Positions 3,999 through 59,351 of a stretch of 64,000 nt of DNA are shown in pieces. The stretch spans positions 3,199 to 67,198 of the forward strand of contig CAZQBX010000013.1 in NCBI GenBank assembly GCA_964592145.1, in the 5' to 3' direction. Position numbers and translations under genes: made by a program. The stretch comes from an uncultured Ignavibacteria bacterium (GTDB taxonomy: Bacteria; Zixibacteria; MSB-5A5; CAIYYT01). A model generated the notes under the pieces. That model was given only the letters and a program-made list of their open reading frames with translations, was not told where the DNA came from and did no database searches. How positions within the stretch are numbered: the first letter of the stretch is position 1; each line of letters opens with the position of its first letter.

Positions 3999-6203
3999 TT
4001 AACTGACGGAAATCTTTCCGTCGCCTCTGCCCGTAACCTCGCCAACGACCATTGCGTCGCCCACTCCCTTCTGAATTAGCTCGCCCATTATAGCCTCCGC
4101 CTGTTCCGGCTTGACCGCCATGAGCAGACCACCCGAGGTCTGTGCATCGGCAAGGACGATGCGCATAACCTTGGATACACTCTCACCCCAGATTATGAAT
4201 GGCGACACATAGTCGAGGTTATTCTCAGTCCCACCGGGCACGATGCCGGCAGATGCGAGAGCGATTGCCTCACTAATAATCGGAACTTGATTTGCATCAA
4301 TCCGCGCCGTAACCCCGCTCCCCACGGTCATCTCCTTTAGATGACCAAGGAGCCCGAAACCGGTGACATCGGTGCAGGCGGACACATCGAAGCGAGACAT
4401 AACCTCTGCTGCTGCCGCATTGAGCGTGCTCATGATCTTGATTACCAAGTCACGCAGCTTCTCGTCGGCCATTTGGCGTTTGATTGCTGTCGAGATGATT
4501 CCCGTGCCAATCGGTTTGGTCAAGATCAATTTGTCGCCAACGCGCGCGGTATTGTTGGCACGAATCTTGGCTGGATGCACGATGCCTGTGACGGCAAGAC
4601 CATACTTGGGTTCAGTGTCATCAATTGTGTGACCGCCAATAATGCTGATTCCAGCTTCACTGGCTTTGTCAGCCGCACCCTGAAGTATTCGCTGCAGTAC
4701 CGACATCGGCAGCCGATTAGAGGGAAATCCGACAATACTCAAACCAAACAGCGGTTTACCGCCCATCGCATAAATGTCGCTAAGCGAATTCGTTGCCGCA
4801 ATTGCGCCGAAGTGATAGGGATCATCAACAATCGGTGTGAAGAAGTCGACGGTTTGCACGACTGCAATTTCGTCGCTTAGACGGTAAACGGCGGCATCAT
4901 CCGAAGTTTCGGCTCCAACCAGCACATTCACATCGTTCGGGCGGGGTAACTGTGCGAGTATCTTTTCGAGGGCCTGTGGTCGCAGTTTACAGGCACAGCC
5001 GAGGCCGTGTGTGTACTTGGTGAGCCGAATCTCCCCCCGGTCATCCATGACTTCTACTGCTGCGGTGCCCGAGGGCGCGAGCCGATTTATCGTCTTCTCG
5101 ATAGCATCGACGGCGGATTCGATTTCTGATTCAGTCGTCATGTAACCGGTTGAAAACCGTATTGTCCCCATGGCATACTCGACCGGAACGTGCATCGCCT
5201 CAAGGACATGCGACATCATCACCTTGTCGGAATGACAAGCCGCGCCAGGCGAGCAGGCTACTTGTTCCAACTCGGAGATTATCGTGTTGGCTTCGATGCC
5301 GGGGAATGATACCGACAGTGTGTTTGGCAACCGCAGTTCGCGGTCTCCATTGACCCGGCACAGCGGCAGGCGTTCGATTAACTCAGTTTCGAGCCTATCG
5401 CGCAGTTTCCTCATCAGCGGCGCCTGTTTGGAGAGCTCGCGAGATACAACTTCGCAAGCTTTACCAAGTCCCACAATCTCGAGAACATTTTCGGTACCGG
5501 CGCGAAGATTCTGCTCGTGCGCCGCTCCGTGAATCATCTTTTGCAGTTCGATACCGCGTCTCACGTAAAGTGCGCCAATGCCTTTCGGTGCATAAAGCTT
5601 GTGCCCGGCAATGGTGATCATATCCGCGCCGGTAGCTTCGACCGTGACCGGTATCTTGCCAACCGCCTGCGCTGCATCCGTGTGGACAGCGATGCTACGT
5701 TCGTGACACATTGCTGCAATCGCCTTGATCGGCTGAATTGTGCCAACCTCATTATTTGCCTGCATGATTGAGAGAAGAACCGTCGTCGGCCGGATTGCAC
5801 GACCGACGTCGTCGAGGTTCACAATACCAGTGGAATCAACCGGGAGATAGGTAACTTCGAACCCCTGGTCCTGCAAGTAGCGACATATCTCCAGCACCGC
5901 AGGGTGTTCAATCTGCGAAGTTATGATATGGTTACCGCGCGCGCGGTTCTTCAGGGCATAACCCGCAATCGCAAAGTTGTCGGATTCGCTTCCGCCGGAG
6001 GTAAAAATAATCTCATCCGTCTCGCATCCCAGCAAAGCCGCCACTTGCGCACGTGCCGTTTCCACTGCCTTTCTTGTCTGCACCCCGAACCAATGCGCAC
6101 TGGAAGGATTTCCGAAGTGGCTGCGCAGGAACGGCAGCATCGCTTCCGCTACTTCTGGATGAATCGGGGTGGTGGCATTATAGTCGAGGTAAATATGATC
6201 CAC
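3999..6203 (-). CDS. selD: Fusion of a NifS/selenocysteine-lyase-like PLP enzyme (N-term ~380 aa) and selenophosphate synthetase SelD (C-term ~345 aa)
   Basis: N-term YLDYNATTP, FTSGGSES, HTDAAQ, GHKLYAPKG, GAACHS. C-term HGLGCACK, DDAAV, TVDFF, NSLSDIYAMGG, GGHT, TDVTGFGLLGH, DAQTSGGLL. GTG start with AGGAG. Confidence 0.95.
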   Translation of the reverse strand: MDHIYLDYNATTPIHPEVAEAMLPFLRSHFGNPSSAHWFGVQTRKAVETARAQVAALLGCETDEIIFTSGGSESDNFAIAGYALKNRARGNHIITSQIEHPAVLEICRYLQDQGFEVTYLPVDSTGIVNLDDVGRAIRPTTVLLSIMQANNEVGTIQPIKAIAAMCHERSIAVHTDAAQAVGKIPVTVEATGADMITIAGHKLYAPKGIGALYVRRGIELQKMIHGAAHEQNLRAGTENVLEIVGLGKACEVVSRELSKQAPLMRKLRDRLETELIERLPLCRVNGDRELRLPNTLSVSFPGIEANTIISELEQVACSPGAACHSDKVMMSHVLEAMHVPVEYAMGTIRFSTGYMTTESEIESAVDAIEKTINRLAPSGTAAVEVMDDRGEIRLTKYTHGLGCACKLRPQALEKILAQLPRPNDVNVLVGAETSDDAAVYRLSDEIAVVQTVDFFTPIVDDPYHFGAIAATNSLSDIYAMGGKPLFGLSIVGFPSNRLPMSVLQRILQGAADKASEAGISIIGGHTIDDTEPKYGLAVTGIVHPAKIRANNTARVGDKLILTKPIGTGIISTAIKRQMADEKLRDLVIKIMSTLNAAAAEVMSRFDVSACTDVTGFGLLGHLKEMTVGSGVTARIDANQVPIISEAIALASAGIVPGGTENNLDYVSPFIIWGESVSKVMRIVLADAQTSGGLLMAVKPEQAEAIMGELIQKGVGDAMVVGEVTGRGDGKISVS

Positions 6204-52466: not shown

Positions 52467-53639
52467 TTAGACGTGGCTGAAGCCGGTGTCAAGTGCACGC
52501 TTGAGATCTTCATATGCCTCAATACCGACCGAAATGCGGATTAGGCCATCGGATATGCCGTTGGCATCCCGAACTTCTTTGGGCACTGAAGCATGCGTCA
52601 TGAGCGCGGGATGTTGTATCAACGACTCGACACCGCCAAGGGACTCGGCCAAGCCGAATACCGGAGTATTGGCAAGCATCTTTTTGGCAGATTCGAGACC
52701 GCCCCTGATAACGAACGATATCATACCGCCATATAGTCGCATCTGGCGTTCGGCGATCTTATGCTGGGGAAACGACTCCAATCCAGGGTAGATGACCTTT
52801 TCGACCTTAGGATGAGTTTCGAGATAGACGGCCAGGTTCATCGCGTTGTCGCACTGACGCTCCATACGCAACGCTAAAGTCTTCACTCCCCGCATTGTCA
52901 GGAATGCATCGAAGGGCCCCATGATGGCACCTGCAGCATTCTGGCAATACTTCATTCTCTCGTGATACTTATCATTGGAGGTTAGAATCGCACCGCCAAC
53001 CGAATCGGCATGACCGTTGATGTACTTAGTCGTAGAATGAACTACAATATCGGCGCCGAGATCGAGCGGCCGCTGCAAGAACGGTGAAGCAAAGGTATTG
53101 TCCACTACCAAAATCAAATTCTTGCGCTTGGTTAATGTGGCAACTGCGCGAATCTCCGTGATCTTCAGCATCGGATTGGTCGGTGTCTCTATAAATACCA
53201 TCTTCGTGTTCGGTTTCAATGCCGCTTCAATACGATCGGTAAACGAAGTATCGACATAAGTGAACTCGATGCCATAATCGGCATACACGCGATTGAATAC
53301 TCGCGGCGTCCCGCCATAGAGATCATCGGAACAAACAACATGATCGCCGGACTTCAATAAGGTCAAGACATTTGACGTAGCGGCCATGCCCGAGGCAAAA
53401 CAAAGACCGTATTTGGCGCCTTCCAGTGCCGCCAGGCATTCTTCAAGTGCACAACGGGTCGGGTTGGCCGTCCGCGAGTACTCGAATCCCTTGTGGCCGC
53501 CAATACCATCCTGCACGTAGGTCGAAGTCTGATAGATTGGAAAGGCAATCGCTCCCGTCGAGGGATCGGGTGGTTGGCCGGCATGGATCGCATTGGTTTC
53601 GAATTGATGTTTGGTCGGATCGTAATCTTTCAAAATCAA
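52467..53639 (-). CDS. Cystathionine gamma-lyase/synthase family PLP enzyme (probable CGL)
   Basis: PIYQTSTY, YSRTANPTR, FASGMAA, ETPTNP, VVDNTF, HSTTKYINGH, AESLGGVESL. Confidence 0.93.
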   Translation of the reverse strand: MILKDYDPTKHQFETNAIHAGQPPDPSTGAIAFPIYQTSTYVQDGIGGHKGFEYSRTANPTRCALEECLAALEGAKYGLCFASGMAATSNVLTLLKSGDHVVCSDDLYGGTPRVFNRVYADYGIEFTYVDTSFTDRIEAALKPNTKMVFIETPTNPMLKITEIRAVATLTKRKNLILVVDNTFASPFLQRPLDLGADIVVHSTTKYINGHADSVGGAILTSNDKYHERMKYCQNAAGAIMGPFDAFLTMRGVKTLALRMERQCDNAMNLAVYLETHPKVEKVIYPGLESFPQHKIAERQMRLYGGMISFVIRGGLESAKKMLANTPVFGLAESLGGVESLIQHPALMTHASVPKEVRDANGISDGLIRISVGIEAYEDLKRALDTGFSHV

Positions 53640-55003
53640 GCTCCTGCGAGAAAATCAATTAAGTCAATTTTGGTCAAGATACCGACCAGCTTGCGATTAT
53701 CAACCGCAAAGACGACATCGGCATTGGATTTAGAGAACAGCTCTGCCAGTCGCGAAATCGGCATCTCGCGCGCAGCCGTATGATATTCATGGACGACGGC
53801 ACCCCTAATCGTTTGCGATGGCGAATAACGGCCTGATACCATTAAGCTCAAGAGATCCGACTCGCGAATCAGACCAACCAGTTCGCCGTTTTCAATCACC
53901 GGCAACTGGGAAATATCATATTTCTTCATCTTCTCGATCACGGTATGCAACGTTTCGTCGCCACTTGCCGAGATGATTTCCTTGCCGTTCTTGCGATCCA
54001 GTATTCGTTGAACGGACCCAAGCTCGGGGCGTTCTTCAAGAAATCCGTAGTCGCGCATCCAGGTCTCATTGAACATCTTCGATAGGTAGCGAGTGCCGCT
54101 GTCCGGCAGGACAACAACAATACGCTTCCCCGGCCCGACCTTCCTGGCTACCTGTATTGCACCCCAGACCGCCGCACCGGAGGATCCGCCGGCAAAAATG
54201 CCTTCCTTCGTTGTCAAATCTCGTCCAGTTAGGAAACAGTCGCGGTCGTTCACCTGGAGCATATCGTCGACAACCGAAAAATCCATCGCCTGCGTGATCA
54301 TATCTTCGCCAATTCCTTCGACCTTGTATACCTCCGGCTTGCCCGGTTTACCGGTCTTGAAGTAGTCATAGAAAACCGAACCGTAGGGATCAACCGCAAT
54401 GATCTTGATATTCTTGTCCTGCTCTTTGAGAAACTTTCCGGCTCCGGAGAGTGTCCCGCCTGTTCCAATGCCGGCGACGAAGTAGTCAATCTTACCGTCC
54501 ATGTCTTTCCAGATTTCCGGACCGGTTAGATTATAGTGTGCTTCAATATTCTTGGGATTGTGGTACTGATTCAAGTAGAATGAACCGGGATTCTCGCGAT
54601 GAATCCGTTTTGCCGTTTCGTAATACGATTCAGGACTGTCGGCCGGGACATTCGTCTTGGTTACCACTACTTTTGCACCAAATGCCTTGAGCAAATTGAT
54701 CTTTTCGTCAGACATCTTGTCGGGAATCGTAAAAATCGCCTTGTAACCCTTGACCGCCGCGACAATCGCCACTCCAACGCCGGTGTTTCCCGAGGTGTTC
54801 TCGACAATCATTCCGGACTTGAGATCACCCCGCCGCTCGGCATCCTCGATGATGTATCGTGCCATTCGGTCCTTAATCGAACCGCCGGGATTCATAAATT
54901 CAAGCTTGGCGTATACTTCGCCGGCACCTTCCGGCACCATCCGCTTTAATTGGACAAGCGGCGTATTGCCGATGGCATCGAGTATGTTATTTAGCTTAGG
55001 CAT
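53636..55003 (-). CDS. cbs: Cystathionine beta-synthase with C-terminal CBS domains
   Basis: IGNTPLV, KLEFMNPGGSIKDR, ENTSGNTG, GIGTGGT, YKVEGIGED, GGSSGA, PDSGTRYLSK, then a CBS pair (ISQLPV, LVGILTKID). Confidence 0.93.
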   Translation of the reverse strand: MPKLNNILDAIGNTPLVQLKRMVPEGAGEVYAKLEFMNPGGSIKDRMARYIIEDAERRGDLKSGMIVENTSGNTGVGVAIVAAVKGYKAIFTIPDKMSDEKINLLKAFGAKVVVTKTNVPADSPESYYETAKRIHRENPGSFYLNQYHNPKNIEAHYNLTGPEIWKDMDGKIDYFVAGIGTGGTLSGAGKFLKEQDKNIKIIAVDPYGSVFYDYFKTGKPGKPEVYKVEGIGEDMITQAMDFSVVDDMLQVNDRDCFLTGRDLTTKEGIFAGGSSGAAVWGAIQVARKVGPGKRIVVVLPDSGTRYLSKMFNETWMRDYGFLEERPELGSVQRILDRKNGKEIISASGDETLHTVIEKMKKYDISQLPVIENGELVGLIRESDLLSLMVSGRYSPSQTIRGAVVHEYHTAAREMPISRLAELFSKSNADVVFAVDNRKLVGILTKIDLIDFLAGA

Positions 55004-55200
55004 CGGTATCCTCTATATTGTGCATTATTTTCGATTCCAGAGAAGTGATCGAGCAAGATTGTCTTCAACTGAAGTCTCTGAACGCTCCCTGAACATAAAC
55101 AAAACCGTTCCACATTGCAACCGTGACGCGATAATTCTGTTCCGGCGAAAGTGGATAAGAGCCATTGCCAATTGAGGACGATTTTCGTTACTTGTGGCAG

Positions 55201-55938
55201 ATGGAAACCACAAAATCGCTGGCTGGCAAAACTGCTCTGATAACCGGCGCCGGCCGCGGCGTTGGCCGTGCTATTGCCGAAGCGTTTGCAGCGACGGGCG
55301 CAGACCTCGTACTTGTCGCCCGCTCGAAAGACGAGTTAAGTGCGACGGCACTGGAATGTGCATCCGCTGGCGCCAGGGTTCTCGCCGAGACAACTGACTT
55401 AGCCGACATCAGACAGATCGACAGTCTGTTCACATTGCTTACCAATCGGGGAATCAAGGTTAATATCTTGGTTAACAATGCGGCAATTCTCATCAAGAAC
55501 CTGTTGGAAGTTTACGATCTTGCCGACTTCCAGAAGATGCTGGCCACCAATATCACAGCGCCATTGGCTCTTAGTCAACGCGCGATCCCAATGATGAAGG
55601 AAGGCGGCGGTGGCACCATCGTCAACATTTCCTCACTCTCCGGCTGCTTTGGAGTACAGAAACTCCCCGGCTTCGGGGCCTATGACATTACCAAGTATGC
55701 CCTGTGGGGATTGACCGAAATGTTGGCAATCGAAAACATGAAGCACAACATACGTGTAAATCAGCTCTCCCTGTCGGCGGTCGATACGGCAATGTTCCGG
55801 TCGGCGTCGCCGCCGGGGCTCAAAGCCGCTCTTAAAGCCGAGGAGGTCGGCAGGCATGTCGTCTATCTCGCCTCGGATGACTCCGCGCCGCTGACAGGCG
55901 AAAACGTGATTCTAACCGGAATGGCTCCAGCGAGATAA
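55201..55938 (+). CDS. Classical SDR oxidoreductase
   Basis: TGAGRGVG, NNAA, NISS, YDITK. Start ATG 55201 (alternative TTG 55165). Confidence 0.9.
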   Translation: METTKSLAGKTALITGAGRGVGRAIAEAFAATGADLVLVARSKDELSATALECASAGARVLAETTDLADIRQIDSLFTLLTNRGIKVNILVNNAAILIKNLLEVYDLADFQKMLATNITAPLALSQRAIPMMKEGGGGTIVNISSLSGCFGVQKLPGFGAYDITKYALWGLTEMLAIENMKHNIRVNQLSLSAVDTAMFRSASPPGLKAALKAEEVGRHVVYLASDDSAPLTGENVILTGMAPAR

Positions 55939-55941
55939 ACT

Positions 55942-56349
55942 ATGAAGACAACCATCACCAAGAGAATGACATTCTGCGCCGGGCATCGCTTATTCAAACC
56001 CGGTCTTTCCGATGAAGAGAATTTGAAGATCTTTGGCGAGTGCTCCAATCCCAATGGTCACGGCCACAATTACGTGCTTGAGGTCAGCGTTTCCGGCGAA
56101 ATCGATCCGGCGACCGGGATGATTATCAATCTCAAGACGCTTAAGCAGATCATTGAGCGCGAGGTCGTCGCCAAAGTCGACCATAAGAATCTCAACATTG
56201 ATGTCGAATTCATGAAAAATCTGGTCCCAACCACCGAAGTCTTTGCTGGCAAGATTTTTGACATTCTTGACAAAGCCTTGGGAAAAGGACTATTGGCGCG
56301 GGTGGTTCTGTGGGAATCAGAAAACAACCGGTTCGAAGTTTCTCGTTGA
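55942..56349 (+). CDS. 6-pyruvoyltetrahydropterin synthase, PTPS-II (mammalian-like) type
   Basis: FCAGHRL, SDEENLKIFGECSNPNGHGHNY (C-x5-HGH), GEIDPATGM, DHKNLN, PTTE. Confidence 0.88.
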   Translation: MKTTITKRMTFCAGHRLFKPGLSDEENLKIFGECSNPNGHGHNYVLEVSVSGEIDPATGMIINLKTLKQIIEREVVAKVDHKNLNIDVEFMKNLVPTTEVFAGKIFDILDKALGKGLLARVVLWESENNRFEVSR

Positions 56350-56396
56350 TAATGTTAGCAAGAGTGTCCATAAAATGGTAAGCCGGAGGTAATGTC

Positions 56397-57125
56397 TTGG
56401 AAAGAGTAGCTCTGATTACAGGCGGTTCAAGGGGTCTTGGATTAGCAACCGCAAAAGAATTGCAGGCGCGCGGATTCAGGCTCCTACTGGTTGGTCTGGA
56501 ATCACAATTGTCCCAAAACGCTCTCCGAATTCTTACCGATCGCCCTGTAGTCAAGTACATCTCTGGTGATATCACGAAATCCGGTACTTGTATTGAAGCG
56601 GCTCGCATTTGTCGGGAGGTATTCGGCCGCCTCGATGTGCTCGTAAACAATGCGGGCATGTACCTCGGCGGCAATATCGAGGAGTTTCCCGAAAGCTCGT
56701 GGGATCAGATTATTGCCGTCAATCTGACTTCGCACTTCCTGATGACAAAAGCCGCTACGCCACTTCTCAAGGAATCTCAAGGTCAGATCATTTTCATAAA
56801 CTCAGTTGGCGGCAAACAGGGTCAAGCGAATAATTCGGCCTACTGCGCCTCGAAATTCGGGCTTCAGGGATTGGCTGACTCGATCCGGATCGAATTGAAA
56901 CCTCACAAGATCAGGGTAACCAGCATCTTTCCGAATAATATGAATTCCGTAGGCGAGATCATATCGTCGGGCGATCCGAAAAGGCTGCAGCTGTTGGAAA
57001 CAGCCGATGTGGCACGGTTAATCGGCGATGTGGCTGATGCCCCGGCGTATGCGCAGATCCCGGAGATTCAGATCTACCCGCTTTCCACAGAAATATCGAA
57101 GAGCGAACGCAGCAAATTCCAGTAA
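56397..57125 (+). CDS. Classical SDR oxidoreductase
   Basis: TGGSRGLG, NNAG, INS, YCASK; TTG start with GGAGG. Confidence 0.9.
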   Translation: MERVALITGGSRGLGLATAKELQARGFRLLLVGLESQLSQNALRILTDRPVVKYISGDITKSGTCIEAARICREVFGRLDVLVNNAGMYLGGNIEEFPESSWDQIIAVNLTSHFLMTKAATPLLKESQGQIIFINSVGGKQGQANNSAYCASKFGLQGLADSIRIELKPHKIRVTSIFPNNMNSVGEIISSGDPKRLQLLETADVARLIGDVADAPAYAQIPEIQIYPLSTEISKSERSKFQ

Positions 57126-57158
57126 CGAAAAACGAACTACGACTCTCGCCGACAATTT

Positions 57159-58358
57159 CTAGGGCCCGACCTGGGTGCTGTCTCCTACCCAACCGCACGA
57201 GATCGTATCAGTCATTCGCGTAACGAAAAGCGGCTCGGCAATTGGCAGCGGAACGCGAATCGCCACTGTCGGCTGCAGTAAGGCTCCATTGCCGACCTCC
57301 GGGCACGTATCCCCCGGCGTCATCACAGTATACTGAACAACCGTCCCGGCGCCACCCTGCTCGAACTTGTCGAGCCAGATTCCTCCGCCCCAGGCAGTCT
57401 GAACATCAGCACGCAGTATCAATACGGCGTGAGTGGTGAAGTCGACCATATTATCAAATGTCGGAATCGGGCGGTCGCCGACTACCGTCGAATCAGCACC
57501 CCAGAGCGTGTCGACCGGCGTACCCCAACGACTGATATCACATTCCCAGGCAGCCTCAACCCAGGCAGTAAACTCGTCAGACGTCCGGATCAACTGCTCT
57601 GTCTCCCCCAGAGCCGGACAAATGGCATCAGTATAGTAGATTGTCAGCGGCAACGACGGATCGGGAGCCCAGGTACATCTGTAGGTAACGTCACTGCGAT
57701 TCCAGGCAAATGTCATCTGCTCGGGACGCGGTACAATGAACGCAGCTACCGGGTTGGTGAAGATGTTTGGATCGATCAGCGGACCGAAGCAATCATCGGC
57801 CGGAGAAGACACTTCATAATTCACCTCAAGACCATCCTCCCCCTCCTGAATACTCCTTATCCAAATATACCTGCCGGAAAGTCCTTGCTCGAGCTTGAAG
57901 ATCAGGACGATGTGCGTTCCAAAATCGACGATTGGCGCTTCGCCCGGCCACAAGCTGTCCGGGCCTACCGTCCCCGAGTCGGAAACAGTCGAGTCCGGTA
58001 TCGGAATGAAATTTCGCTTGAAACTGCCGTCGGCGCAATCAACAGCCTCCGCCCACCATTCTTCCCAATTGGTCTGGTCGACTATAACTTCGAACTGCTG
58101 CTGCTGCGGACAACCGTTATCAGTGAAGAATACTGGAAAGTACTGAATACCGGTGTCGAATCCCGGAAGACCCGGCAACGTGTCGTTAGGTCCGGAAATT
58201 CCCGGGCCGCCGATGAATGGGTCGTTATCACTCTCGCGACCGCCGCCGGCAAGACGCGTCGATTCAGAGTTATCCGGCTCGATCGGCTTATCACTTCCAC
58301 AGCCGGCAAGCAGACCAAATGCGACAACCAGACAAAGCAAAGTGACGATTCTGGCCAT
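57159..58358 (-). CDS. Lipoprotein with two tandem PrcB-like domains
   Basis: Lipobox LAG-C; two repeats of P.VDF.TH.VL.......G...I....E.G....V.Y.V..P.D.C. Start ATG 58358. Confidence 0.7.
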   Translation of the reverse strand: MARIVTLLCLVVAFGLLAGCGSDKPIEPDNSESTRLAGGGRESDNDPFIGGPGISGPNDTLPGLPGFDTGIQYFPVFFTDNGCPQQQQFEVIVDQTNWEEWWAEAVDCADGSFKRNFIPIPDSTVSDSGTVGPDSLWPGEAPIVDFGTHIVLIFKLEQGLSGRYIWIRSIQEGEDGLEVNYEVSSPADDCFGPLIDPNIFTNPVAAFIVPRPEQMTFAWNRSDVTYRCTWAPDPSLPLTIYYTDAICPALGETEQLIRTSDEFTAWVEAAWECDISRWGTPVDTLWGADSTVVGDRPIPTFDNMVDFTTHAVLILRADVQTAWGGGIWLDKFEQGGAGTVVQYTVMTPGDTCPEVGNGALLQPTVAIRVPLPIAEPLFVTRMTDTISCGWVGDSTQVGP

Positions 58359-58458
58359 ATATTGTGACCTCCGAGAATATTCTTGCTCGTTCTGAAGACG
58401 ATTTATGAACAATTTCTGTGCAGAATTATCGGGAAGTTGCGCATACTCCGAAGAAAAA

Positions 58459-58532
<74 letters not shown>

Positions 58533-59351
58533 ATTAGCAACCCCAAGAAATTCCTCCAGCACGTGATTGTCAAGGGATTTCTTGACGGTGTTATCGCACT
58601 GACGCGTTTCTCTCTGGCACCTGTTACTATTCGATCAGGTTGAAAGCAATTCTTCGTTCTACTCCGTACCGCTGTACTTCAACTATCCTCGTGCTGCGAA
58701 CGAAGTGGTCTCAGTGCACTTCCAGCTGAGTCATCGGGACGCTTCGCGATGGGCGGGCGAGTCGATGCGCGCCGTCGCAGAACTGTTTTTTCTGCCGATT
58801 CAAATTGTTGTCAAGCGTTCACATTCAAAAAACATAATTTTTTTTTGGGCGACGAAGATGCGGATGCCCGGTGAGATTTTCGCTCCGCGCGATTGCCGCA
58901 TTCATCGCACACACTCTCCACGTTTCGACGCCGTCCGCAAATTTACAGCACAAAATCACTGAAGTTGATTAAGATGATTTCAAAAATTCCGATTAAGAAA
59001 TGGAGAGGACGATTTCTGGAATGAACAATTCGATGTCGAGACAGATGATTTTCGCGGAAGAACAAAAAGTTTTTGTTGATTTAGTTTGCTCCGACATTCA
59101 CTCTTACATGCAATTGATTTAAAAACCGGCAGAGATGCTGAAGACACGAGTTCAAAAATGAGCAACAGAGAAAATTCACAGGTCAACATGACAGCAGATG
59201 CTCGCACCGAGATCGTCTCTTCAGCATTGGCACGGAACTCCGCGGCTAATGTTGACTCCTTGCAATCAGAAATGGGTAGATCATTTGATCGTCCCGGTTT
59301 GCAGATATTTCCGAATGATCAGCCATTCAATAACTGTGAGAGGAGATCGTA

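What the first reader, a model, noticed from the sequence alone, without database searches (positions are those of the whole stretch)
55201..57125. SDR - PTPS-II - SDR operon: candidate tetrahydrobiopterin-type pathway
Seen: the middle gene has C-x5-HGH (56041-56067) and long stretches that closely match my recollection of mammalian PTPS (SDEEN, GEIDPATGM, DHKNL). It is flanked by two classical SDRs. Known: QueD (PTPS-I) has C-x3-HGH, PTPS-II serves BH4 synthesis, and sepiapterin reductase is an SDR. Inference: the two SDRs reduce the two side-chain ketones, possibly stepwise or with different stereochemistry, to give a biopterin-like cofactor in an uncultured lineage.
Basis: partly seen in the sequence, partly recalled or inferred. 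Interest (0 to 1): 0.6.

Follow-up and report, generated by a model that had tools for sequence, protein, structure and literature searches.

The report
Zixibacterial biopterin-type pterin operon
Three adjacent genes in an uncultured Zixibacteria-type bacterium (an animal-like pterin synthase between two reductases) most likely make a biopterin-type cofactor for the genome's phenylalanine-breakdown pathway; the pathway type is known, but both reductases are undescribed subfamilies.

Summary
The region 55201-57125 holds SDR1, a PTPS with C-x5-HGH (56041-56067), and SDR2. They lie on one strand with gaps of 3 and 47 nt.

The PTPS is about 52% identical to human PTPS and keeps every catalytic and zinc residue. 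A BH4-type role fits the genome context:
- a separate QueD-QueE-QueC cluster
- FolE and a single FolB
- a pterin-4a-carbinolamine dehydratase
- a 603-aa aromatic-amino-acid hydroxylase that closes a homogentisate-pathway gene run

Neither SDR is an orthologue of a known sepiapterin reductase. SDR1 is a subfamily found only in Zixibacteria-type genomes, and PTPS-II lies in 25 of its 29 loci. SDR2 falls in the same broad SDR group as the Chlorobium tepidum reductase but lacks the equivalents of its Phe99 and Trp196.

The trio is a trimmed form of a five-gene cluster in sister lineages: SDR1, a CDP-alcohol-phosphotransferase-like membrane protein, PTPS-II, FolE2, SDR2.

Which SDR reduces which carbonyl, or whether one recycles the cofactor, remains untested.

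Bacterial BH4-type operons are known. This scan has met many on other DNA, including first-reader notes of this same trio in two other genomes. Verdict: real and well supported, a new variant of a known kind, of moderate interest.

The parts
55004..55200 (.). Divergent intergenic region between the cystathionine beta-synthase gene (minus strand) and SDR1. The presumed operon promoter lies here. It contains a block (about 55100-55170, AAAACCGTTCCACATTGCAACCG...TTCTGTTCCGG...) that is conserved in congeneric genomes.
   Evidence: sequence; the block is kept in L115-L120, where SDR1 protein identity falls to about 70%. No Rfam family matches. No sigma-70-like site was found on the + strand here.
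55201..55938 (+). SDR1: a classical short-chain dehydrogenase/reductase of 245 aa. It carries TGAGRGVG, NNAA, S145, Y161-x3-K165 and Arg41 after beta-2, which reads as NADPH type. It belongs to a subfamily found only in Zixibacteria-type genomes, with the motifs IVNISSLSGCFGV and YDITKYALWGLTE.
   Evidence: invariant N117, S144/S145, Y161, K165; FabG-like against the PDB; clade support 100; 29 loci, 25 of them with PTPS-II.
55942..56349 (+). PTPS-II: 6-pyruvoyl-tetrahydropterin synthase type, 135 aa.
   Evidence: human 3i2b at 1.4e-40, 65 of 126 aligned residues identical; invariant H15, C34, H40, H42, D80, H81, E125.
56041..56067 (+). Codons for C34-S-N-P-N-G-H40-G-H42, the C-x5-HGH signature of PTPS-II.
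   Evidence: The signature definition is in PMC5041015 and PMC5445326.
56385..56389 (+). GGAGG ribosome-binding site, seven nt before the TTG start of SDR2.
   Evidence: sequence. The N-termini of the SDR2 orthologues align at this start.
56397..57125 (+). SDR2: a classical SDR of 242 aa. It carries TGGSRGLG, NNAG, S136 and Y149-x3-K153. It lies in the same broad SDR group as the Chlorobium tepidum sepiapterin reductase but forms a distinct subfamily with a P-[HN]-x-M-N-[ST] motif.
   Evidence: clade support 98, within a 98-supported set that also holds the 2BD0-like reductases; 2bd0 ranks 10th, 149.9 bits; Phe99 and Trp196 equivalents absent; two of the three closest relatives outside this lineage lie after PTPS-PTPS-FolE in Terriglobia.

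Best explanation
The three genes form one operon that branches pterin metabolism at 7,8-dihydroneopterin triphosphate, which the FolE encoded on another contig supplies. PTPS-II converts that substrate to 6-pyruvoyl-tetrahydropterin. The two NADPH-type SDRs then reduce the diketo side chain to give a tetrahydrobiopterin-type pterin of unknown stereochemistry.

In this genus the pterin most likely serves as cofactor of the 603-aa aromatic-amino-acid hydroxylase that closes a homogentisate-pathway (Phe/Tyr catabolism) gene run. A pterin-4a-carbinolamine dehydratase would recycle it.

Shown here: gene identities, catalytic residues, synteny and genome inventory. Inferred: the enzyme activities, which SDR does which step, the product, and its user.
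For: PTPS identity:
- C-x5-HGH is present, and the zinc histidines, Cys, Asp-His and Glu are all kept.
- It is far closer to human and rat PTPS (1e-40) than to QueD (1e-8).

Other pterin routes are covered elsewhere in the genome:
- A C-x3-HGH QueD sits next to QueE and QueC on contig 5.
- FolB is present once, so there is no FolX-type monapterin route.
- FolE is present.

Linkage of the SDRs to PTPS-II:
- The trio is kept in all 13 genomes of the genus and in a sister genus.
- PTPS-II lies in 25 of the 29 SDR1-family loci.
- In sister lineages FolE2 sits between PTPS-II and SDR2.
- Both SDRs keep the N-S-Y-K tetrad and a basic residue in the glycine motif.
- SDR2 groups with the 2BD0-like reductases of Ignavibacterial PTPS-FolE-SDR operons.
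- Two of the three closest SDR2 relatives returned from outside this lineage follow PTPS-PTPS-FolE in Terriglobia.
- The genome has no other sepiapterin-reductase-like SDR.

Demand for the cofactor:
- The hydroxylase scores 802.8 bits against NF010657, whose cut-off is 346.
- It lies after genes for an HPPD-like protein, a weak HGD-like protein, an aminotransferase, an FAH-family hydrolase and an acetoacetyl-CoA-synthetase-like protein.
- A pterin-4a-carbinolamine dehydratase is present.
Against: - There is no biochemical evidence.
- Neither SDR has sepiapterin reductase as its best solved relative.
- SDR2 lacks the equivalents of C. tepidum reductase Phe99 and Trp196.
- The pterin cluster occurs in 16 relatives where no hydroxylase was found, and the hydroxylase occurs in 5 relatives where no PTPS-II was found. 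The cofactor link is therefore not obligatory.
- Some relatives have SDR1 without SDR2, so two reductases are not always needed.
- No dihydropteridine reductase was identified.
Confidence: 0.6

Rival explanations
1. Only one SDR is the side-chain reductase. The other is a ring reductase that keeps the cofactor reduced, either a dihydropteridine-reductase-like or a pteridine-reductase-like enzyme (quinonoid or 7,8-dihydro form to tetrahydro form).
For: - Known dihydropteridine and pteridine reductases (QDPR, PTR1, FolM, PruA) are SDRs (my own knowledge).
- The genome has a hydroxylase and a pterin-4a-carbinolamine dehydratase but no identified dihydropteridine reductase.
- The C. tepidum reductase, and probably the Ignavibacterial ones, do both side-chain reductions alone (PMC7520308).
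- Relatives manage with SDR1 but no SDR2.
Against: - Both SDRs also accompany PTPS-II in lineages where no hydroxylase was found, where recycling would matter less.
- Neither SDR shows a specific likeness to a solved pteridine or dihydropteridine reductase in the top 60 PDB hits.
Confidence: 0.2
2. The product is not primarily a hydroxylase cofactor. It is a specialised pterin, such as a conjugated, envelope-associated, photoprotective or signalling pterin, and the window's trio is the core that remains of that pathway.
For: - In sister lineages the cluster includes a CDP-alcohol-phosphotransferase-like membrane protein that abuts or overlaps its neighbours by ORF coordinates.
- Half of the relatives with PTPS-II show no hydroxylase.
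- Bacterial pterin glycosides and the pepteridines show that such specialised pterins exist (PMC5384830; my own knowledge).
Against: - The window genome and its genus lack the membrane protein (best hit 25 bits; 0 of 15 genomes in genera g1 and g5).
- They do have the hydroxylase, the homogentisate genes and the dehydratase.
Confidence: 0.12
3. The PTPS acts as QueD (6-carboxy-tetrahydropterin synthase) or as a FolB bypass, and the SDRs are unrelated neighbours.
For: The COG0720 family is functionally promiscuous and often misannotated (PMC5041015).
Against: - The motif is C-x5-HGH, not C-x3-HGH or E-x2-HGH.
- The genome has its own QueD next to QueE and QueC, and its own FolB.
- The SDR1 family is almost never found away from PTPS-II.
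Confidence: 0.03

Closest known systems
Animal de novo tetrahydrobiopterin pathway (GTP cyclohydrolase I, PTPS, sepiapterin reductase)
   Same: The PTPS is about 52% identical to the human enzyme, with the same C-x5-HGH motif and the same Zn, Cys, Asp-His and Glu residues. Reduction is by SDR-family, NADPH-type enzymes. The pterin would serve an aromatic-amino-acid hydroxylase, with pterin-4a-carbinolamine dehydratase for recycling.
   Different: There are two separate SDR genes instead of one sepiapterin reductase, and neither is an orthologue of it. The genes form a bacterial operon. The hydroxylase is the long 600-aa bacterial type, NF010657.
Chlorobium (Chlorobaculum) tepidum L-threo-tetrahydrobiopterin pathway with sepiapterin reductase 2BD0, and the PTPS-II - FolE - 2BD0-like SDR operon of Ignavibacteria
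   Same: Both are in the FCB group. PTPS-II is linked to a short classical SDR. SDR2 falls in the same well-supported SDR set, and 2bd0 ranks 10th of 659 with the SDR2 profile.
   Different: SDR2 lacks the equivalents of Phe99 and Trp196, which the Ignavibacterial enzymes keep. A second, FabG-like SDR1 is present. FolE is not in the operon.
Alternative mammalian route from 6-pyruvoyl-tetrahydropterin using two enzymes (carbonyl reductase plus aldose reductase/AKR1 members)
   Same: Two different carbonyl reductases share the two side-chain reductions (PMC7520308). This is the closest precedent for a two-reductase reading.
   Different: One of the mammalian enzymes is an aldo-keto reductase, whereas both enzymes here are SDRs. 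The mammalian enzymes are generalists, whereas SDR1 here is dedicated by synteny.
Five-gene Zixibacterial cluster SDR1 - CDP-alcohol-phosphotransferase-like protein - PTPS-II - FolE2 - SDR2 (sister genera and families; not described in the literature I searched)
   Same: SDR1, PTPS-II and SDR2 are orthologous and in the same order.
   Different: The window's genus and one sister genus lack the membrane protein and FolE2 altogether, and instead carry the hydroxylase.

Membership tests
PTPS-II (6-pyruvoyl-tetrahydropterin synthase, COG0720 subfamily II) | C-x5-HGH signature motif | tested here: met
   C34-SNPNG-H40-G-H42. The motif definition is in PMC5041015 and PMC5445326. The genome's QueD paralogue shows the two-residue-shorter C-x3-HGH in the same alignment.
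PTPS-II (6-pyruvoyl-tetrahydropterin synthase, COG0720 subfamily II) | Zinc-binding histidine triad, plus catalytic Cys, Asp-His pair and C-terminal Glu | tested here: met
   H15, H40, H42, C34, D80, H81 and E125 are invariant in 14 sequences and align with the same residues of human and rat PTPS. The assignment of roles to these residues rests on my recollection of the rat enzyme structures.
PTPS-II (6-pyruvoyl-tetrahydropterin synthase, COG0720 subfamily II) | Closer to characterised PTPS than to QueD or PTPS-III, and not the genome's queuosine or folate enzyme | tested here: met
   Human 3i2b scores 1.4e-40 against QueD 4ntm at 1e-8. The protein is below the NCBIfam QueD cut-off. A separate QueD-QueE-QueC cluster and a FolB are present.
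PTPS-II (6-pyruvoyl-tetrahydropterin synthase, COG0720 subfamily II) | Converts dihydroneopterin triphosphate to 6-pyruvoyl-tetrahydropterin | not testable with these tools
   This needs an enzyme assay.
Sepiapterin reductase, C. tepidum type (2BD0) | SDR fold with the Ser-Tyr-Lys catalytic residues and an NADPH-type glycine motif | tested here: met
   SDR1 has S145, Y161, K165 and TGAGRGVG with R41. SDR2 has S136, Y149, K153 and TGGSRGLG. The models have mean pLDDT of 90 and 87. This feature is generic to SDRs and is not diagnostic.
Sepiapterin reductase, C. tepidum type (2BD0) | Orthology: a sepiapterin reductase is the best solved relative | tested here: not met
   2bd0 is absent from the top 60 hits for either single protein. 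It ranks 10th with the SDR2 profile and is not in the top 60 with the SDR1 profile. The Ignavibacterial operon SDR, by contrast, has 2bd0 as its first hit at 2.3e-34.
Sepiapterin reductase, C. tepidum type (2BD0) | Equivalents of Phe99 and Trp196, residues tied to L-threo-BH4 production (titles cited in PMC7520308) | tested here: not met
   SDR2 has G/M/A at the Phe99 position and G/N/Y at the Trp196 position. The Ignavibacterial enzymes keep F and W. SDR1 has Lys (variable across the family) at the Phe99 position and Phe or Tyr at the Trp196 position.
Sepiapterin reductase, C. tepidum type (2BD0) | Reduces sepiapterin or 6-pyruvoyl-tetrahydropterin with NADPH | not testable with these tools
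   This needs an enzyme assay. The only support is synteny with PTPS-II and FolE2.
Bacterial long aromatic-amino-acid hydroxylase (NF010657), the proposed user | Scores above the curated equivalog cut-off and keeps the PDxxHExxGH iron-site motif | tested here: met
   The score is 802.8 bits against a cut-off of 346. PDIIHEAAGHAP is in the translation. The pterin this enzyme actually uses is not known.

The most novel reading that the evidence does not exclude
Zixibacteria use a two-enzyme alternative to sepiapterin reductase. SDR1 and SDR2 would be dedicated mono-ketoreductases that set the two side-chain stereocentres separately, perhaps giving a non-L-erythro biopterin isomer.

In the ancestral five-gene cluster the CDP-alcohol-phosphotransferase-like membrane enzyme would then join this pterin through a phosphodiester to a lipid or other alcohol. 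That would be a membrane-anchored or phospho-conjugated pterin of a kind not yet described. On this reading, the window's genus lost that tailoring step when the pterin was taken over as a free cofactor for phenylalanine hydroxylation.
Probability: 0.2. Interest if true: 0.65.

Novelty: new variant of a known kind. Interest (0 to 1): 0.4.

Why it matters
Tetrahydrobiopterin-type cofactors are textbook animal biochemistry. In bacteria they are documented for only a few lineages, and their final reductases are poorly defined.

This locus contributes four things:
- two new PTPS-linked SDR subfamilies that are not sepiapterin-reductase orthologues
- a clear candidate user, a hydroxylase heading phenylalanine and tyrosine catabolism
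- an evolutionary series from a five-gene cluster with a membrane phosphotransferase to a three-gene core
- an annotation rule for Zixibacteria and a tractable system for asking how pterin side-chain stereochemistry is set

It does not overturn anything known.

Tried and rejected
- A Foldseek search of the SDR2 model against the PDB returned generic SDRs with near-equal scores and no sepiapterin reductase in the top 50, so it did not discriminate. I did not repeat it for SDR1.
It missed the Zixibacterial orthologues and mostly returned unrelated SDRs. Its only use was that two of the three best hits lie in Terriglobia PTPS-PTPS-FolE operons.
- An Rfam scan of 54500-57700 found nothing at E up to 1.
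- The promoter and terminator consensus scan gave no more sites than shuffled sequence.
- NCBIfam gave no family above cut-off for either SDR.
- A search for a 2BD0-like reductase elsewhere in the genome found a best hit of only 30% identity.
- No nitric-oxide synthase was found.
- Strict co-occurrence of PTPS-II with the hydroxylase was tested and rejected. Of 61 genomes, 16 have both, 16 have only PTPS-II and 5 have only the hydroxylase.
- In the loci where the CDP-alcohol-phosphotransferase-like gene lacks PTPS, its neighbours are a TldD/PmbA pair, HAD phosphatases and ComB, which were uninformative.
- Literature searches for Zixibacteria with 6-pyruvoyl, and for PTPS with short-chain dehydrogenase clusters, found no description of this cluster.
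- I considered an SDR1-SDR2 complex prediction and did not run it. Relatives carry SDR1 without SDR2, so an obligate heteromer is not claimed.
Full report
**Observation**

The region holds three co-directional ORFs:
- SDR1, 55201-55938, 245 aa
- a PTPS-family gene, 55942-56349, 135 aa
- SDR2, 56397-57125, 242 aa, with a TTG start and GGAGG seven nt upstream

The gaps are 3 and 47 nt. The genes on both sides are on the opposite strand: a cystathionine beta-synthase at 53636-55003 and an unknown 467-aa protein at 57159-58562. The trio is therefore an isolated transcription unit.

Codons 34-42 of the middle gene are exactly 56041-56067 and read CSNPNGHGH.

**The middle gene**

Pfam PTPS matches at 1.9e-31. 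The best solved relatives are human PTPS 3i2b (1.4e-40) and rat PTPS 1b66 (8.6e-38), then the C. elegans enzyme. E. coli QueD scores only about 1e-8. By my count of the printed alignment, 65 of 126 aligned residues are identical to the human enzyme.

In an alignment with 12 bacterial PTPS genes from PTPS-linked loci and the genome's own QueD, the columns H15, C34, H40, H42, D80, H81 and E125 are invariant. The QueD shows the two-residue-shorter C-x3-HGH. C-x5-HGH is the published signature of PTPS-II, C-x3-HGH that of QueD, and E-x2-HGH that of PTPS-III (PMC5041015 and PMC5445326). The protein falls below NCBI's QueD cut-off.

**Genome inventory**

The assembly is 3.96 Mb in 161 contigs and is scored 100% complete. 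It contains the following:
- A second PTPS-family gene, a C-x3-HGH QueD, sits directly beside QueE and QueC on contig 5. Queuosine synthesis therefore has its own enzyme.
- It has one FolE of type IA and no FolE2.
- It has a single FolB-family gene, so folate has its own aldolase and there is no FolX for a monapterin route.
- No nitric-oxide synthase was found.
- It has a pterin-4a-carbinolamine dehydratase.
- It has a 603-aa aromatic-amino-acid hydroxylase that scores 802.8 bits on the equivalog NF010657, whose cut-off is 346.

That hydroxylase is the last gene of a same-strand run on contig 17. By Pfam the run encodes:
- a two-domain glyoxalase-fold dioxygenase, HPPD-like
- a weak homogentisate-dioxygenase-like protein
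- a class I/II aminotransferase
- a fumarylacetoacetate-hydrolase-family protein
- a flavin-reductase-domain protein
- an acetoacetyl-CoA-synthetase-like enzyme

This reads as a phenylalanine/tyrosine-to-acetoacetate pathway, whose first step needs a tetrahydropterin.

**The two SDRs**

Both are classical SDRs with the N-S-Y-K tetrad and a basic residue in the glycine motif. SDR1 also has the Arg after beta-2. By the established SDR coenzyme rules this points to NADPH (the rule is from my own knowledge). They are only 29% identical to each other.

Neither has a sepiapterin reductase among its 60 best solved relatives. The genome has no other candidate either: the best match to a 2BD0-like reductase is 30% identical.

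A tree was built from the PTPS-linked SDRs and four paralogues from this genome. SDR1 (support 100), SDR2 (98) and the Ignavibacterial 2BD0-like reductases (99) are separate clades. SDR2 and the 2BD0-like clade lie together in a 98-supported set that excludes SDR1 and three of the four paralogues.

With a family profile, the C. tepidum reductase 2bd0 ranks 10th of 659 for SDR2, at 149.9 bits over its full length. It is not in the top 60 for SDR1, which is FabG-like.

Phe99 and Trp196 are the C. tepidum residues tied to L-threo-BH4 formation in titles cited by PMC7520308. The Ignavibacterial enzymes keep both. SDR2 has G/M/A and G/N/Y at those positions. SDR1 has an aromatic residue only at the Trp196 position.

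Two of the three best SDR2 relatives returned from outside the lineage (38% and 35% identity) lie just after PTPS-PTPS-FolE in Terriglobia. Structure models are confident (mean pLDDT 87 and 90), but a Foldseek search does not discriminate among SDRs.

**Synteny**

The closest relatives are MAGs labelled Zixibacteria, or loosely 'Ignavibacteria'.

The trio is present in all 13 genomes of the genus, though not contiguous in every assembly, and in a sister genus. The motifs that define SDR1 recover only 29 loci in about 186,000 species genomes, all of the Zixibacteria type:

| Arrangement | Loci |
|---|---|
| SDR1 - PTPS-II - SDR2 | 11 |
| SDR1 - CDP-alcohol-phosphotransferase-like protein - PTPS-II - FolE2 - SDR2 | 8 |
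| The same five-gene order without SDR2 | 4 |
| SDR1 - PTPS-II - FolE2 | 1 |
| SDR1 - membrane protein - PTPS-II, cut by a contig end | 1 |
| SDR1 - membrane protein, cut by a contig end (no PTPS-II seen) | 1 |
| SDR1 alone | 3 |

PTPS-II is therefore present in 25 of the 29 loci. The inserted genes are a PF01066 membrane protein (1e-10 to 1e-12) and a full-length FolE2 (1.4e-97).

FolE2 inside the cluster ties both SDRs to a GTP-derived pterin. In Ignavibacteria proper the operon is PTPS-II - FolE - SDR, and that SDR's best solved relative is the C. tepidum sepiapterin reductase.

**Evolutionary context**

Counts across the window's genome and 60 relatives (61 genomes):

| Gene | Genomes with it (of 61) |
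|---|---|
| PTPS-II | 32 |
| Hydroxylase | 21 |
| Both | 16 |
| PTPS-II only | 16 |
| Hydroxylase only | 5 |
| Membrane phosphotransferase-like gene | 17 |
| FolE2 | 21 |

Neither the membrane gene nor FolE2 was found in the window's genus (0 of 13) or the sister genus (0 of 2). Those are exactly the two genera that have both the three-gene form and the hydroxylase. In the SDR trees these two genera form one clade, so this is one evolutionary event and not a statistical association. The window's operon is thus a trimmed derivative of a larger cluster.

**Reading**

The best-supported explanation is this. FolE makes dihydroneopterin triphosphate. PTPS-II makes 6-pyruvoyl-tetrahydropterin. The two NADPH-type SDRs reduce the side chain to a biopterin-type tetrahydropterin. 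In this genus that pterin feeds the hydroxylase of the homogentisate pathway, with the dehydratase for recycling.

Gene identity, residues, synteny and inventory are shown. Activities, division of labour, stereochemistry and the user are inferred.

The main rival is that one SDR is a ring or quinonoid reductase. A second rival is that the pterin has another, non-cofactor role, as the membrane enzyme in sister lineages hints. A QueD or FolB-bypass role is very unlikely.

**Comparison and novelty**

Bacterial BH4-type pathways are known from C. tepidum and cyanobacteria. About 50 genomes were predicted to have one in 2016 (PMC5041015). PTPS-II neighbourhoods were reported as variable, with FolE and Nudix the only recurrent neighbours (PMC5445326).

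This scan has many similar findings on other DNA. They include first-reader notes of the same SDR-PTPS-SDR trio in two other genomes and of the five-gene form with the phosphotransferase. I found no paper describing the Zixibacterial cluster.

The finding is therefore a new variant of a known kind. It has two undescribed PTPS-linked SDR subfamilies and an unusual ancestry, and it is of moderate interest.

Noticed in passing
L096:3960-4856 (minus strand); also L091:3062-3940, L094:2399-3262, L100-L114: A CDP-alcohol-phosphatidyltransferase-like membrane protein of about 290-305 aa (PF01066) sits directly upstream of PTPS-II in 9 of the 15 loci found with it, and a tenth locus is cut by a contig end just after it. 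One of the nine is in a Latescibacterota MAG, with the order SDR - this gene - two PTPS paralogues - FolE. This suggests a phospho-conjugated or lipid-linked pterin. The gene was not found in the window's genome (best hit 25 bits).
   Followed up: partly
L143:179-10098 (own genome, contig 17): A same-strand run of genes: an HPPD-like dioxygenase, a weak HGD-like protein, an aminotransferase, an FAH-family hydrolase, a flavin-reductase-domain protein, an acetoacetyl-CoA-synthetase-like enzyme, and the 603-aa aromatic-amino-acid hydroxylase. It is a likely Phe/Tyr catabolic operon. The flavin-reductase-domain gene (5208-6185) is an untested candidate for pterin recycling.
   Followed up: partly
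window 55100-55170: This block in the divergent intergenic region before SDR1 (AAAACCGTTCCACATTGCAACCG ... TTCTGTTCCGG) stays conserved in congeners whose SDR1 protein is only about 70% identical. It may be a promoter or a regulator site shared with the divergent cystathionine beta-synthase gene. It has no Rfam match.
   Followed up: partly
G053:C2:395152-395916 and G053:C2:398641-399447: In one relative a 408-aa open frame holds at least two PTPS modules, and it lies about 3 kb from the long hydroxylase gene. This agrees with an earlier scan report of a multi-module PTPS in a Zixibacteria genome.
   Followed up: no
L114:4409-4906, L112:4256-4786, L113:4349-4756: In the clusters that carry FolE type IA, two PTPS paralogues sit in tandem. 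In L114 the first one reads C-x3-HGH, although it is 42-46% identical to the window's PTPS-II. Motif and overall similarity disagree there.
   Followed up: no
L096:4849-5635 and L013:2560-3341: SDR1 in one sister genome, and the membrane phosphotransferase-like gene in another, are split into two overlapping frames. These are either frameshifts or assembly errors.
   Followed up: no
window 52467-55003: Genes for cystathionine beta-synthase (PALP plus CBS domains) and a Cys/Met-metabolism PLP enzyme lie divergent from the pterin operon. In a sister-genus locus (L013:199-1587) the gene in the same divergent position begins with a similar PLP-enzyme-like sequence, but I did not run it through Pfam.
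   Followed up: no
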